Shown one piece after another: positions 28,375 through 63,586 of a DNA stretch of 64,000 nucleotides. Origin of the DNA: Naegleria gruberi (Eukaryota); assembly GCA_000004985.1 (NCBI GenBank), contig GG738851.1. The stretch is one strand, 5' to 3'. The notes under the pieces were generated by a model. It saw only the letters and a program-made list of their open reading frames with translations, had not been told where the DNA came from and ran no database searches. Numbering within the stretch: the stretch's first letter is position 1; each line of letters starts with the position of its first letter. Position numbers and translations under genes: made by a program.

Positions 28375-28447
28375 GCCCGTCTAGCTCAGTCGGTAGAGCG
28401 CAAGGCTCTTAACCTTGTGGTCGTGGGTTCGACCCCCACGGTGGGCG
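28375..28447 (+). tRNA. tRNA-Lys (anticodon CTT)
   Basis: The sequence is GCCCGTCTAGCTCAGTCGGTAGAGCGCAAGGCTCTTAACCTTGTGGTCGTGGGTTCGACCCCCACGGTGGGCG. It folds as a cloverleaf with a 7-bp acceptor and the anticodon loop CTCTTAA. No CCA is encoded. Confidence 0.9.
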
Positions 28448-37805: not shown

Positions 37806-37878
37806 AGCCCGTCTAGCTCAGTCGGTAGAGCGCAAGGCTCTTAACCTTGTGGTCGTGGGTTCGACCCCCACGGTGGGC
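37806..37878 (+). tRNA. tRNA-Lys (anticodon CTT), second identical copy
   Basis: The 73-nt sequence is identical to 28375..28447 and the roughly 45-nt 5' flank at 37760..37805 is shared. The 3' flank differs. Confidence 0.9.
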
Positions 37879-37977
37879 GTTTCCTTTTGGTTTAATTTTT
37901 TTTTGCTCTATTTTGCAGAGTGATTTTGAATTAATTGAGACAAGGTCCTCAAATCCTGAAAATAAGGTATCTACATA

Positions 37978-40326: not shown

Positions 40327-40397
40327 AATAAAACGTGAAACTTTATTAATGTCTCTTATATCAATAACAGCCTTGATGACATTTGGTAGGTCTCATA

Positions 40398-40431
40398 TCT
40401 TAAGGTCGTGAGTTCGACCCCCATGGTGGGC
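40398..40431 (+). pseudogene. tRNA-Lys(CTT) 3'-half fragment running from the anticodon loop to the acceptor 3' strand
   Basis: The sequence CTTAAGGTCGTGAGTTCGACCCCCATGGTGGGCG, followed by the flank ATTCAATTTT, matches the 3' half and 3' flank of the tRNA-Lys copy at 28375. About 6 nt are deleted and there are 2 substitutions. No 5' half is present. Confidence 0.55.
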
Positions 40432-40531
40432 GATTCAATTTTTGTTGATCACAATTATCGTAGTGGTTGCTGATGATGAACTTTGTCCTATTATTAGGTT
40501 CACTAAGTCTTTCTAATTATTTAAAAAAAAA

Positions 40532-41954: not shown

Positions 41955-42027
41955 GCTGGCGTAGCTCAGTCGGTAGAGCGTTGGTCTAATAAGCCATTGG
42001 TCGCCGGTTCGATCCCGTCCGTCAGCA
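41955..42027 (+). tRNA. tRNA-Ile (anticodon AAT)
   Basis: The sequence is GCTGGCGTAGCTCAGTCGGTAGAGCGTTGGTCTAATAAGCCATTGGTCGCCGGTTCGATCCCGTCCGTCAGCA. The anticodon loop is CTAATAA. There is one mismatch in each of the anticodon stem (27-43) and the T stem (50-64). Confidence 0.7.
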
Positions 42028-58777: not shown

Positions 58778-60121
58778 TTATAATTGAGTTGGTGGCGAGG
58801 AGGTCTCTGGAGTGAAGAGAGTATTTATAAAGTTATTCCTATTACTGGGAAGAGAATTTGAAAGCAGTTCTTCATTGCTGATGATTGAAGAGGGCGAGTT
58901 GAGTGTTGAAAGATAATAGGGCGATATTGGTGTTGTTGATTGCTTTGATTGATTTGCCAGTTTGAGGACACCACTATTGGTAGAAGATTTTGGTTCCTTG
59001 TAGGTTGAAACTGTGGTTATAGTATCAGTTTCTTGTTGTTTCTTTTTCATTTCGAATGAAATATTGTCAAGTGGTCCAAATGCAAACGTTACCAGAAGGC
59101 ACAATATTCCAATAGATACTTTGTGGATAATAGAGGAAGCAAGAAGGATTTTGGCTGGAGAGAATATAATTTTCAACATTAGTATTATATTTGAAATAAT
59201 ATTCAAGAGTGAAGTTAATAATTGTCCTATTGAAAGTGCAATCAATTTACGACAAGCTGTTTTTCTCTCCTTAGAGATGGGTCTATTTTCTGGCAAGAGT
59301 TTCCTTACCAGAGCCCCTACGCTTACTACATTCAAAATTGTGAAATATAACATTCCTAATGAAACAAATAATCCTAATGTAGAACTGACAGTCTCGGCCT
59401 GTTCACTTATCAAGATGGTCATTGCTGTTTCTGCATATCTTAGCATGAATAGTGTGCATACAGTTACAATAAAGAGCAGCAGTAAAATGTTTAGAATAAT
59501 CACAAGAGAAATACTCGAAATTTTGACAAACTTTCCCCAAGTTTGATTCATTCGATTTTTCCTCATCCAAGATTGTGTCTTATTGAAATAAATATTGTAA
59601 ATTATCTTTGCTATGGTAGCCTGACTGTTCATACACAGAGTTACAGAAATCATCATGCCAGACGTTTCAAAGGCATGAAAAAATGTCCAAAACCAACCCT
59701 GCATTGCAGTGATTAATCCAACCGTGTATGTTATTCCAAAACATTGAAAAACTATTTGATTAAGACAAATAAGTATCAATAGAATGTACAACAATCTCTT
59801 ATTAAATACCATATGCTTCCACTTTGATACAAGTAGAAATCCCATCGGCAATAGAAGAACCATAAAGAAGAGAAGACCTGTAATATGCACTCCGAGAATT
59901 CCATAAATACAATCGTCGATTGATGATGGTTGTATCATTACGGAGCTATTGAATCCATATTGTGATGAATTAAAGAATGAAGAAGATAATGATGATGATG
60001 GCGGTTGTGGCAAATTGATAGAAATCAACATTAAATTTCTTTTTAAAATTCTTTTTAATTTGATTTGTACTAATATTGACAAAAAACTTACAGAGATATT
60101 GACTGGTAGTGAAGACCTCAA
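58778..60121 (-). CDS. Seven-transmembrane receptor-like protein with a Ser/Thr-rich C-terminal tail
   Basis: Seven hydrophobic helices lie between residues about 70 and 350, followed by a long S/T/P-rich tail. The true start may be the internal Met of MIQPSSIDD. Confidence 0.5.
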   Translation of the reverse strand: MRSSLPVNISVSFLSILVQIKLKRILKRNLMLISINLPQPPSSSLSSSFFNSSQYGFNSSVMIQPSSIDDCIYGILGVHITGLLFFMVLLLPMGFLLVSKWKHMVFNKRLLYILLILICLNQIVFQCFGITYTVGLITAMQGWFWTFFHAFETSGMMISVTLCMNSQATIAKIIYNIYFNKTQSWMRKNRMNQTWGKFVKISSISLVIILNILLLLFIVTVCTLFMLRYAETAMTILISEQAETVSSTLGLFVSLGMLYFTILNVVSVGALVRKLLPENRPISKERKTACRKLIALSIGQLLTSLLNIISNIILMLKIIFSPAKILLASSIIHKVSIGILCLLVTFAFGPLDNISFEMKKKQQETDTITTVSTYKEPKSSTNSGVLKLANQSKQSTTPISPYYLSTLNSPSSIISNEELLSNSLPSNRNNFINTLFTPETSSPPTQL

Positions 60122-60151
60122 ATTATAAGAAAAATAATATCAAAAAGCACA

Positions 60152-60226
60152 TGCTACCCGCGCGGATCGAACGCACATCTTCTTACTCCCGATAAGCAAG
60201 ACGCCCTACCATTAGACCAGAGCAGC
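60152..60226 (-). tRNA. Atypical tRNA-like gene with an 11-nt region between the anticodon-stem halves. The anticodon is ambiguous; TAT (Ile) with a 4-nt insertion is one reading, and a 6-bp stem with a 9-nt loop is another.
   Basis: The minus-strand sequence is GCTGCTCTGGTCTAATGGTAGGGCGTCTTGCTTATCGGGAGTAAGAAGATGTGCGTTCGATCCGCGCGGGTAGCA. The acceptor, D arm and T arm (GTGCG-TTCGATC-CGCGC) are canonical. The anticodon stem is TCTTG/TAAGA and encloses CTTATCGGGAG. Confidence 0.5.
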
Positions 60227-61768: not shown

Positions 61769-63586
61769 ATGTTGATGATCCTATTGGTGGCCTTGATGGT
61801 CATTGTTATTTCTCTGATGATCAACATTGCCTTCAAACTTTATAATAATTATAAGAAGGGTATGTTGTTTTTTCTTTTCAAAATTTAATGATGATTAATT
61901 TTACCAAAATCGATTGGTTACCACAGTTGCTCATATTCCTGGTACTTTTCAATTGACATTTACTCCGTGGAGAATTCCTTTAATTTCACCTGTTTGGTAT
62001 TTGGGAAATGTTGGTACAATTGTTGATGATGTTAGAAAGTATGGTGATGCTGAGAATAAAATCATGAGAATTACTTATCCTGATGCTAATATGGTGCTAG
62101 TTTCTGATCCAGACATGTTGAAAGAGTTCTACCTGACCAAGGGAAATACATTTGACAAGTCGAGTTATGTCTATGACATGTTCAATGTTTATGGAGAGAG
62201 TATCTTGTCAGCTAAAGATACCGAAACATGGAGAAAGCATTTCAAGTAAGTTTTACAATTTTTTACAACAATTTGTGTAATTAACTGATTATAGAGTTGT
62301 TTCACCTGCATTCTCTCCAAAGAATTTGCAATACATGTGTAAGGTTTGCATTGACAGTTCAAAATTATTATTCAACAGATGGGAATCAAAATTGAAAGGA
62401 AAGGAATATTTCATATTGGATTTAGGTGATTTCCCAGATGTTACATTGGATGTTCTTGGAACTAGTGCTTTTGGTATTGATTTTGGCACTTTTTCAGGTG
62501 AACACAACACATCAGAATCAAAATTCAGAAGAGCAATGGAAAAGGTAATTTCACATCAATTCCTAATTAGAAGATTCTTTTTAGAGGTTCCATGGCTTTG
62601 CAAGTTTTTGGAGAGTGTTACTGGAGCAGGAGAAGCAACCAAGTTTTGTGGAGATTATTTGGATAAGGTCATTAAGGATAGAACAAAATTGGTAGAGAGC
62701 TATACTTCATCAACAACTGACGATGAGAAAAAGCATGATGTGTTTACATTGTTAGTGGAGGCTAACATTCTTGACAAGCAATTGACAGATGGAGAATTGA
62801 AGAGTAATGCCTTGATTTTCTCGTAAGTATTATTAATATTTGTATATTTATCAAATACGTATAGAGCTGCTGGACATGAAGTAAGTATCAATTAGATTTC
62901 ACATTCTCATTTTAAATACCATAATAATAGACAACTGCAACCTTACTAAAGTGGACCTTTTATGAAATCTCTAAAAGACCTGAAGTTCAAAACAAAATGT
63001 ATCAAGAAATTGTGGAAAAAATTGGTGATCGTCCAATAGAATACGAAGATTTTGGTAAGATGGACTATGTTTACTCTACCATTCTAGAGGTGTTGAGATT
63101 TAACCCTCCTGTCGTTTGGGTCTCTCGAGAATGTAACAAGAGCACAACTATTGGAAAGTATCACATTCCAAAAGGAACCAGAGTAAATGCTCTCATCAAA
63201 CAAGCTCACAGTAATGAAAAGAATTGGACCAGGCCAGAAGAATTCAATCCAGAACGTCTCTTCAACAATCCAGAGCTCAGAGACAAGGTTCAACAGGATA
63301 TGTCATTCATTGGATTTTCTATGGGAAATCGTAAATGTAAGTGTTTAGATTATCATATTTTTTTACTAATTTAAACAATCCAAACAAATGGACAAATACC
63401 ACATCTCTAGGTATTGGATATAAATTTGCTTTATTAGAAGCAATGATGCTTATTTGCACATTCTTAAAGAGCTATGAATTTAAATTGGAAAATGATGAAA
63501 CTATTGATCCAGTCCTACCAAAGAAAGGTATCGTAAATGTTCCAGGTGATAACATGAGAATCAGAGTCTTCCACAGAACCAAATAA
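61769..63586 (+). CDS. Cytochrome P450 monooxygenase with six exons, at 61769..61859, 61927..62245, 62295..62822, 62865..62880, 62931..63336 and 63411..63586
   Basis: All five introns have GTAAGT or GTATGT donors and YAG acceptors, and each restores the frame. The lengths are 67, 49, 42, 50 and 74 nt. The I-helix motif AAGHETT is assembled from exon 4 (16 nt) plus exon 5. The K-helix reads EVLRFNPP. The heme-binding motif FSMGNRKC|IGYKFALLE spans intron 5. The N-terminal membrane anchor is MLMILLVALMVIVISLMI. Confidence 0.8.

What the first reader, a model, noticed from the sequence alone, without database searches (positions are those of the whole stretch)
60152..60226. tRNA-like gene with an oversized anticodon region
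The acceptor stem, D arm and T arm (GTGCG/TTCGATC/CGCGC) are textbook. However, 11 nt (CTTATCGGGAG) lie between the anticodon-stem halves TCTTG and TAAGA instead of 7. Three readings are possible. The first is a canonical tRNA-Ile(TAT) precursor with an unusually short 4-nt intron at a non-canonical position, giving C37. The second is a 6-bp stem (TCTTGC/GTAAGA) closing a 9-nt loop. The third is a decaying pseudogene. Any functional version would be non-standard.
Basis: seen in the sequence. Interest (0 to 1): 0.55.

Follow-up and report, generated by a model that had tools for sequence, protein, structure and literature searches.

The report
Naegleria tRNA gene with blocked anticodon loop
A transfer-RNA gene in the amoeba Naegleria gruberi is intact everywhere except its anticodon loop, which has four extra bases; it is most likely a disabled spare copy in a genome with about 900 tRNA genes, not a new kind of tRNA or a record-short intron.

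Summary
On the minus strand (60226->60152) lies a 75-nt tRNA-like gene. All four stems pair (21/21), the conserved tertiary nucleotides and the B box are present, and a T5 Pol III terminator lies 5 nt downstream. Eleven nt (CTTATCGGGAG) sit where 7 belong. The window is Naegleria gruberi nuclear DNA. Rfam's tRNA model scores the gene 39.4 bits, against 57-70 for its six neighbours. ARAGORN gives conflicting calls: Pro-GGG, or Pro-CGG with a 2-nt 'intron'. No 4-nt excision gives a standard loop. Removal at the canonical 37/38 site leaves C37. Every excision that keeps C32 leaves a C32-G38 Watson-Crick pair. The extra bases extend the anticodon stem into a continuous 8-bp helix with a 5-nt loop (-25.9 kcal/mol). 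The bulged geometry that the splicing endonuclease needs costs about 9 kcal/mol more (-17.0) and has zero ensemble probability. A metagenome contig from a relative about 2% diverged carries the same 3' 31 nt and terminator at the same locus, but it stops just short of the loop. No paralogue could be retrieved. N. gruberi has about 883 tRNA genes plus 41 called pseudogenes. The best reading is a decoding-disabled tRNA gene copy (about 0.55). A real mini-intron remains possible (about 0.17). Interest is low to moderate.

The parts
60152..60226 (-). 75-nt tRNA-like gene: a class I cloverleaf with a 7-nt D loop and a 4-nt variable region.
   Evidence: ARAGORN. Rfam RF00005, 39.4 bits. Structural parse checked against the sequence.
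60186..60196 (-). 11-nt segment CTTATCGGGAG lying between the canonical anticodon-stem halves, where 7 nt are expected.
   Evidence: Read directly. The Rfam alignment places 7 nt where the model has 3 positions.
60181..60201 (-). Anticodon arm, predicted to fold as a continuous 8-bp helix (UCUUGCUU/GAGUAAGA) capped by a 5-nt loop AUCGG. The three extra pairs are C-G, U-A and U.G.
   Evidence: Minimum-free-energy fold. Energies are -25.9 kcal/mol for 8 bp against -18.6 for the open 11-nt loop. Pair probabilities are 0.59-0.61.
60160..60176 (-). T arm GTGCG/TTCGATC/CGCGC, containing an intact B-box-like GTTCGATCC.
   Evidence: It is 100% identical in the relative's contig L005.
60203..60219 (-). 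Positions 8-24: U8, G9 and the D arm GTCT/AATGGTA/GGGC. This is the A-box region, with A14, G18 and G19 present.
   Evidence: Read directly.
60142..60146 (-). T5 run 5 nt downstream of the discriminator base, a Pol III terminator like those after the six normal tRNAs in the window.
   Evidence: It is conserved in L005.

Best explanation
This is a tRNA gene copy that has lost its decoding function. It has an otherwise intact class I tRNA body, possibly of the Ile(UAU) lineage, with 4 extra nucleotides in the anticodon loop. The extra bases pair with the 5' side of the loop, so the anticodon arm becomes a continuous 7-8-bp hairpin with a 5-7-nt cap. That structure has no U33 turn, no purine 37 and no 7-nt loop to present an anticodon. 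The gene can probably still be transcribed by Pol III and end-processed, because the A and B boxes, the cloverleaf and the T5 terminator are intact. This step is inferred, not shown. The product is unlikely to be spliced by the tRNA endonuclease or to function on the ribosome. The copy is tolerated because N. gruberi carries hundreds of redundant tRNA genes. Shown here: the anatomy, the energetics, the failure of every excision to restore a canonical loop, and the organism. Inferred: the lack of decoding function, and redundancy with normal copies.
For: 1. The lesion sits in the one element indispensable for decoding, and everything else is intact.
2. No contiguous excision of 1-6 nt restores a canonical loop. 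The 4-nt excisions give CTTATCG (C37), CTTATAG, CTTAGAG, CTTGGAG or CTGGGAG, and all of these keep a C32-G38 Watson-Crick pair.
3. The endonuclease rules (ruler-defined 37/38 site, an anticodon-intron helix starting at position 32, and a 3-nt 3' bulge) are not met. The bulged model costs -17.0 kcal/mol against -25.9 for the continuous helix, and the C32:G(-3) pair has probability 0.0 in the ensemble.
4. The model score is 39.4 bits, against 57.5-69.9 for the six neighbouring tRNAs. ARAGORN's calls are unstable.
5. Base rate and redundancy: N. gruberi has 924 tRNAscan-SE hits, of which 41 are pseudogenes and 883 are tRNA genes (PMC2888827 supplement).
6. A review states that short insertions found in one of many synonymous eukaryotic tRNA genes are taken to be pseudogenes (PMC4090602).
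7. tRNA gene decay is visible in the same window: a relic of the 3' half of Lys-CTT at 40380-40433.
8. A loop-length-free pattern for this anticodon arm found no other copy in the metagenome, prokaryote-genome or viral collections. This is weak evidence against an abundant family with this arm.
Against: All 21 stem pairs are kept, with 6 G.U pairs and no mismatch. The conserved tertiary nucleotides, the B box and the terminator are also intact. An old pseudogene should show mismatches, so either the lesion is recent or the structure is still under selection. The three extra pairs that the insert forms with the loop would arise by chance only about 5% of the time (0.375^3, own estimate). They resemble the way real introns pair with the anticodon loop. 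The gene is not a recent copy of any of the six other tRNAs in the window (45-53% identity), and no normal parent copy was found. Redundancy is therefore assumed, not shown. ATA makes up 17% of Ile codons, so a tRNA-Ile(UAU) is needed somewhere in the genome, and none was seen in the 64 kb.
Confidence: 0.55

Rival explanations
1. The gene encodes a real pre-tRNA, most simply tRNA-Ile(UAU), with a 4-nt intron. The intron is removed either at the canonical 37/38 site (GGGA, leaving C37 and G38) or one position upstream (CGGG, leaving A37 and G38). The intron would pair with U33 and U34 before splicing, for example to guide pseudouridylation of the anticodon, as happens in yeast tRNA-Ile(UAU).
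For: The Rfam model aligns CUUA to positions 32-35 and places the surplus after the anticodon. Excision of CGGG or GGGA gives a 71-nt tRNA that ARAGORN calls Ile(TAT). A C32:G(-3) anticodon-intron pair with a G-A-G 3' bulge can be drawn, and it is the same C32:G pair seen in human pre-tRNA-Arg(TCT). The body, promoter boxes and terminator are intact. ATA codons are in regular use. In yeast, tRNA-Ile(UAU) needs its intron for pseudouridine 34 and 36 (PMC4090602). Insertions of 3 nt in Guillardia nucleomorph tRNA genes are removed in vivo, as shown by RT-PCR (PMC4090602).
Against: The canonical cut leaves C37, whereas cytosolic tRNAs have a purine at 37 and ANN decoders need A37 for t6A (established knowledge). 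The alternative cut is off the ruler position. Both products have a C32-G38 Watson-Crick pair. The anticodon-intron helix could be only 1 bp long, against about 4 bp in known substrates. The required bulged fold is about 9 kcal/mol worse than the continuous helix and is absent from the ensemble. The body has a 7-nt D loop and a 4-nt variable region. This differs from the window's Ile(AAT) gene, which has 8 and 5.
Confidence: 0.17
2. The RNA is made and kept unspliced as a tRNA-shaped RNA with a long anticodon hairpin. It would serve something other than standard triplet decoding, for example as a source of tRNA fragments or a decoy for a tRNA-binding enzyme. Less likely, it could be a decoder with an expanded 9-nt loop on a 6-bp stem, or a 7-nt loop UAUCGGG on a 7-bp stem.
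For: The cloverleaf is fully maintained, with G.U pairs but no mismatches. The hairpin is stable. Transcription signals are intact. The gene is present with an identical 3' part and terminator in a close relative.
Against: There is no precedent in this lineage and no second copy. The 7-nt-loop register has A33 instead of U33. A 7-8-bp anticodon stem would displace the anticodon. The conservation in L005 carries no information, because the relative is only about 2% diverged.
Confidence: 0.12
3. The four extra bases are a sequencing or assembly error in an ordinary tRNA gene.
For: Only one assembly covers the loop. The second contig (L005) begins 3 nt after the loop ends, inside the 3' strand of the anticodon stem.
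Against: A heterogeneous 4-nt insertion (not a homopolymer slip) is not a typical error. Removing any 4 nt still leaves a non-canonical loop. The rest of the locus agrees at 97.5-100% with an independent contig.
Confidence: 0.03

Closest known systems
tRNA pseudogenes and 'undetermined' tRNA-like genes in eukaryotic nuclear genomes (tRNAscan-SE category; 41 reported for N. gruberi, PMC2888827)
   Same: It is a single copy with a lesion in an essential element. Its covariance-model score is lower than those of bona fide neighbours. The genome has hundreds of redundant tRNA genes.
   Different: Apart from the loop it shows no decay: all stems pair and the promoter boxes and terminator are intact. 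No parent family was identified.
Canonical eukaryotic intron-containing pre-tRNAs (TSEN/Sen substrates such as tRNA-Ile(UAU), Tyr(GUA), Arg(UCU))
   Same: The extra nucleotides lie 3' of a U33-NNN motif and pair with the 5' side of the anticodon loop. A C32:G pair can be drawn 3 nt before a putative 3' splice site.
   Different: It has 4 nt, against roughly 11 nt or more in the examples retrieved here: C. merolae 11-69 nt (PMC3728597), and the 15-nt human Arg-TCT intron inferred from the residue numbering in PMC10539383. There is no 3-nt bulge and no 4-bp anticodon-intron helix. The canonical cut leaves a pyrimidine at position 37.
Tiny non-canonical tRNA insertions of the Guillardia theta nucleomorph (3-24 nt; Kawach et al. 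2005, as summarised in PMC4090602)
   Same: The insert is very short, cannot form a bulge-helix-bulge motif, and lies in an otherwise good tRNA gene.
   Different: The nucleomorph inserts were shown by RT-PCR to be excised. By recollection, not checked here, they sit in a minimal genome where most tRNA genes are single-copy. Here nothing is known about excision, and the genome is highly redundant.
Natural or engineered tRNAs with expanded (8-9-nt) anticodon loops, such as frameshift suppressors and yeast mitochondrial tRNA-Thr(UAG) (own knowledge, not tested)
   Same: The loop is larger than 7 nt on a normal body.
   Different: Those keep U33 and an open loop. Here the surplus is predicted to be absorbed into extra stem pairs.

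Membership tests
tRNA (Rfam RF00005, cytosolic class I) | Cloverleaf with 7/4/5/5-bp stems, scoring above the family's gathering score. | tested here: met
   39.4 bits against a gathering score of 29. 21 of 21 pairs form.
tRNA (Rfam RF00005, cytosolic class I) | Conserved tertiary nucleotides: U8, A14, G18-G19, A21, G53, T54-T55-C56, A58, C61. | tested here: met
   Read directly from the parsed sequence.
tRNA (Rfam RF00005, cytosolic class I) | A 7-nt anticodon loop with U33, a purine at 37 and no Watson-Crick pair between 32 and 38. | tested here: not met
   The loop has 11 nt. The predicted fold is an 8-bp stem with a 5-nt loop.
Eukaryotic intron-containing pre-tRNA (TSEN/Sen substrate) | An intron between positions 37 and 38 whose removal leaves a canonical anticodon loop. 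| tested here: not met
   Removing GGGA at 37/38 leaves CUUAUCG, with C37 and a C32-G38 pair.
Eukaryotic intron-containing pre-tRNA (TSEN/Sen substrate) | An anticodon-intron base pair from position 32 to intron position -3, heading a short helix. | tested here: not met
   A C32:G pair can be drawn. It has probability 0.0 in the ensemble, and the helix could be only 1 bp long.
Eukaryotic intron-containing pre-tRNA (TSEN/Sen substrate) | The 3' splice site lies in a 3-nt bulge between the anticodon stem and the anticodon-intron pair. | tested here: not met
   The predicted structure is a continuous helix. The bulged model is -17.0 kcal/mol against -25.9.
Eukaryotic intron-containing pre-tRNA (TSEN/Sen substrate) | A spliced mature product is observed. 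| not testable with these tools
   No RNA data are available.
Bulge-helix-bulge introns (archaea, Cyanidioschyzon merolae) | Two 3-nt bulges separated by a 4-bp helix. | tested here: not met
   A 4-nt insert cannot supply this motif, and the fold shows no bulges.
tRNA pseudogene | A lesion in an element essential for function. | tested here: met
   The anticodon loop is disrupted, and no excision restores it.
tRNA pseudogene | It is one aberrant copy among intact synonymous copies. | not testable with these tools
   The N. gruberi assembly could not be fetched. Only the genome-wide counts are known.
tRNA pseudogene | Relaxed constraint, seen as sequence decay or loss in relatives. | tested here: inconclusive
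   There are no stem mismatches. The 3' 31 nt are identical in a relative, but that relative is only 1-2.5% diverged.

The most novel reading that the evidence does not exclude
The 4 nt are a genuine, excised tRNA intron in the nuclear genome of a free-living eukaryote. It would be far shorter than any nuclear tRNA intron I could document. It is incompatible with the known bulge-and-ruler recognition by the splicing endonuclease, so it would be removed by an unknown or relaxed mechanism, as with the 3-nt nucleomorph inserts. It would yield the organism's tRNA-Ile(UAU).
Probability: 0.15. Interest if true: 0.7.

Novelty: new member of a known kind. Interest (0 to 1): 0.25.

Why it matters
If it is a disabled copy, as seems most likely, it matters only as an annotation caveat. 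ARAGORN labels it tRNA-Pro, and Rfam's default filters skip it altogether, so automated tRNA inventories of Naegleria will misreport it. If the four bases are excised in vivo, it would be a minimal nuclear tRNA intron that breaks the recognition rules established by the recent TSEN structures. It would then be a compact natural substrate for asking what the eukaryotic tRNA splicing machinery really requires.

Tried and rejected
- Yeast or social-amoeba origin was rejected. The flanking Rab gene is 100% identical to an N. gruberi protein.
- ARAGORN's Pro(GGG) and Pro(CGG) calls were rejected. They need a 3-bp D stem, or a shifted anticodon stem with a 2-nt 'intron' at 33/34. The body shares no anticodon-stem base and only 2 of 7 acceptor bases with the window's Pro(TGG) gene.
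- A recent damaged copy of a neighbouring tRNA was rejected: identity to the other six is 45-53%, and there is no repeat in the window or the fetched loci.
- A metagenome scan with a loop-length-free pattern gave one hit, which is a chance match with no tRNA around it. The same approach on prokaryote genomes and viral contigs found nothing.
- Fetching the N. gruberi assembly through its proteins failed four times.
- Synteny handles were tried. The Rab neighbour has no orthologues. The P450 neighbour led only to a non-syntenic W. magna locus. The Arf neighbour led to short contigs without tRNAs.
- Relatives of the membrane-protein neighbour in N. fowleri, N. lovaniensis and W. magna lie in non-syntenic regions that hold only ordinary Glu-CTC and Lys-CTT genes.
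- The one true orthologous contig (L005) stops inside the 3' strand of the anticodon stem, just after the loop.
- A literature search found nothing on Naegleria or heterolobosean tRNA introns. The N. gruberi genome paper is not held.
- Origin of the insert by tandem duplication was considered and rejected on reading the sequence: there is no 4-nt repeat. Origin by hairpin template switching was also rejected: the 3' arm is not the exact complement of the 5' arm.

Full report
**What is there**

The region 60152-60226 holds a 75-nt tRNA-like gene on the minus strand. Read 5'->3' it is GCTGCTC TG GTCT AATGGTA GGGC G TCTTG CTTATCGGGAG TAAGA AGAT GTGCG TTCGATC CGCGC GGGTAGC A.

- All four cloverleaf stems pair completely: 15 Watson-Crick and 6 G.U pairs, with no mismatch.
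- U8, A14, G18-G19, A21, G53-T54-T55-C56, A58 and C61 are all present.
- A T5 run follows 5 nt after the discriminator base, as it does after the six ordinary tRNA genes in the window.
- Rfam's tRNA model scores the gene at 39.4 bits (E = 3.7e-7, gathering score 29) when the region is searched on its own. Its alignment puts 7 nt where the model has 3 anticodon-loop positions.
- Both whole-window Rfam runs missed the gene because of the speed filters.

**Where it comes from**

The window is 34% GC and gene-dense, and it carries eukaryote-type tRNAs. The ORF immediately upstream of the odd gene is 100% identical to a Rab-family GTPase of Naegleria gruberi NEG-M. N. gruberi has an unusually large tRNA complement: 924 tRNAscan-SE hits, of which 883 are called tRNA genes and 41 pseudogenes (PMC2888827). 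The window itself holds six normal tRNA genes and a relic of the 3' half of a Lys-CTT gene at 40380-40433.

**What the extra bases do to the structure**

The predicted minimum-free-energy fold extends the 5-bp anticodon stem by C-G, U-A and U.G. This gives a continuous 8-bp helix capped by AUCGG. With the rest of the cloverleaf held fixed, the energies are:

| Anticodon arm model | Energy (kcal/mol) |
|---|---|
| 5 bp + 11-nt loop | -18.6 |
| 6 bp + 9-nt loop | -22.2 |
| 7 bp + 7-nt loop | -23.9 |
| 8 bp + 5-nt loop | -25.9 |

The three extra pairs each have a probability of about 0.6, the same as the canonical closing pair.

**Is it an intron?**

The cryo-EM work on human TSEN gives explicit rules (PMC10539383; bioRxiv 2022.09.03.506465):
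- The splice sites are set by distance from the mature body, and the intron follows position 37.
- Position 32 pairs with the intron base 3 nt before the 3' splice site, heading a helix of about 4 bp.
- The 3' site lies in a 3-nt flipped-out bulge.

Applied here, the canonical intron would be GGGA. A C32:G(-3) pair and a G-A-G bulge can be drawn. However, that helix would be a single pair, the model is about 9 kcal/mol worse than the continuous helix (-17.0 against -25.9), and the pair has zero probability in the ensemble. The product would have C37, whereas cytosolic tRNAs have a purine at 37 and ANN decoders need A37 (established knowledge).

I enumerated every contiguous excision of 0-6 nt. 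The 4-nt excisions give the anticodons GGG, UGG, UAG or UAU. All those that keep C32 leave G38, a Watson-Crick 32-38 pair that normal tRNAs avoid. Only the off-ruler excision CGGG gives A37.

ARAGORN's own calls change with its settings. It gives Pro-GGG with a 3-bp D stem, or Pro-CGG with a 2-nt intron at 33/34 and a shifted stem. No standard model fits.

**Isotype**

The first five loop bases (CUUAU) and A73 suggest Ile(UAU), and that is how the Rfam model aligns them. The body has a 7-nt D loop and a 4-nt variable region. It is only 45-53% identical to each of the six other tRNAs, including the window's Ile(AAT). Resemblances to Arg and Ile(UAU) tRNAs of other eukaryotes are from my memory only and were not tested. 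The isotype is unresolved. ATA makes up 17% of Ile codons in the window's ORFs, so a tRNA-Ile(UAU) is needed somewhere in the genome.

**Comparative evidence**

The N. gruberi assembly could not be fetched. A loop-length-free pattern for this anticodon arm found only a chance hit in the metagenome collection and nothing in the prokaryote-genome or viral collections.

An exhaustive HMMER search with the downstream membrane-protein ORF found a 96%-identical protein. It lies on an ENA metagenome contig, ERZ929261 k127_30365 (L005). That contig begins inside the tRNA. Its first 31 nt are identical to the last 31 nt of the gene, and the T5 terminator follows. It starts 3 nt after the loop ends, inside the 3' strand of the anticodon stem.

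The relative is only 1.1-2.5% diverged in the coding sequences and the main spacer. The identity therefore confirms the locus independently but says nothing about selection.

Family members in N. fowleri, N. lovaniensis and W. magna lie in non-syntenic regions. Those regions hold only ordinary tRNAs: Glu-CTC, Lys-CTT and Asp-GTC.

**Weighing the readings**

*Points favouring a disabled copy:*
- The lesion is in the one indispensable element.
- No excision restores a canonical loop.
- The endonuclease geometry is not met.
- The model score is 18-30 bits below the neighbours.
- The genome is massively redundant and has dozens of called tRNA pseudogenes.
- A review states that short insertions in one of many synonymous eukaryotic tRNA genes are regarded as pseudogenes (PMC4090602).
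- tRNA decay is visible 20 kb away in the same window.

*Points against it:*
- The rest of the gene is unblemished. The six G.U pairs with no A.C mismatch suggest either continuing selection for structure or strand-biased C-to-T change in a transcribed gene. The second possibility is my inference.
- The insert's complementarity to the loop has a chance probability of about 0.05 (own estimate).
- No parent family was found.

Tiny 3-nt insertions are known to be excised in Guillardia nucleomorph tRNAs by an unknown mechanism (PMC4090602). A real mini-intron therefore cannot be excluded.

*Probabilities assigned:*

| Reading | Probability |
|---|---|
| Decoding-disabled gene copy | 0.55 |
| Genuine mini-intron | 0.17 |
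| Stable non-decoding or expanded-loop RNA | 0.12 |
| Sequence error | 0.03 |

The remaining probability is unassigned.

**Verdict**

The anomaly is real and was accurately described. It is most likely an ordinary kind of thing, a crippled tRNA gene copy in a tRNA-rich genome. It has a modest chance of being an unusually small intron. The decisive tests are a whole-genome paralogue census, the orthologous loop sequence in close strains, and tRNA-seq. All three are simple but lie outside these tools.

Noticed in passing
window 40380-40433 (+): A relic of a tRNA-Lys(CTT) gene. It has the 3' half with point changes (TTGGTAGGTCTCATATCTTAAGGTCGTGAGTTCGACCCCCATGGTGGGCG) and the same downstream flank (attcaatttt) as the intact copy at 28375-28447. 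There is no recognisable 5' half. Neither ARAGORN nor Rfam calls it.
   Followed up: partly
window 28375-28447 and 37807-37879 (+), plus about 45 nt upstream of each: The two Lys-CTT genes are 100% identical and share a similar upstream block (ttatttattttta/tatggggacgtcattttt/caat...gaacaagaa). This is either a duplicated unit or a conserved upstream promoter element.
   Followed up: no
window 41955-42027 (+): The tRNA-Ile(AAT) gene has two non-standard pairs: T.T in the anticodon stem and C.T in the T stem. Rfam flags both, and it is the second-lowest-scoring normal tRNA in the window, above only Trp-CCA. It may be a slightly degenerate copy.
   Followed up: no
window 60152-60226: Rfam cmscan misses this 39.4-bit tRNA hit, which is above the gathering score, when the whole 64-kb window is searched in either gathering or E-value mode. 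It finds the hit only in a 281-nt sub-search. This is a filter artefact that matters for any window-wide RNA census.
   Followed up: yes
window 58778-60121 (-) and L005 158-1420: This multi-pass membrane-protein ORF appears to have no annotated N. gruberi NEG-M protein, because its 90% cluster holds only the ENA sequence. It is intact and 96% identical in the relative, and it belongs to a Naegleria/Willaertia-specific family with several N. gruberi paralogues. It is probably an unannotated gene.
   Followed up: partly
window 61914-63374 (+): A cytochrome P450 gene split into at least three ORFs by short introns. The protein search returned no N. gruberi entry for it, and the best hit was a 32%-identical W. 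magna protein. It may be unannotated or mis-modelled in the reference.
   Followed up: no
L005, L004 (ENA ERZ929261, run ERR1078381, PRJEB11402); P0008 (ENA, sample not looked up): The ENA metagenome assembly ERZ929261 contains low-coverage contigs of an organism about 98% identical to N. gruberi NEG-M. It could serve as a second strain for comparison across this window. P0008, a 99%-identical Arf protein from an ENA assembly, may come from the same organism.
   Followed up: partly
L006 17734-17806 (-) and L008 19316-19388 (-): N. fowleri and N. lovaniensis keep a tRNA-Glu(CTC) gene at the same place, upstream of a GH63 glycosidase gene, within a collinear gene block. tRNA gene positions can therefore be conserved between Naegleria species, which makes the synteny test proposed for the odd gene feasible.
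   Followed up: no
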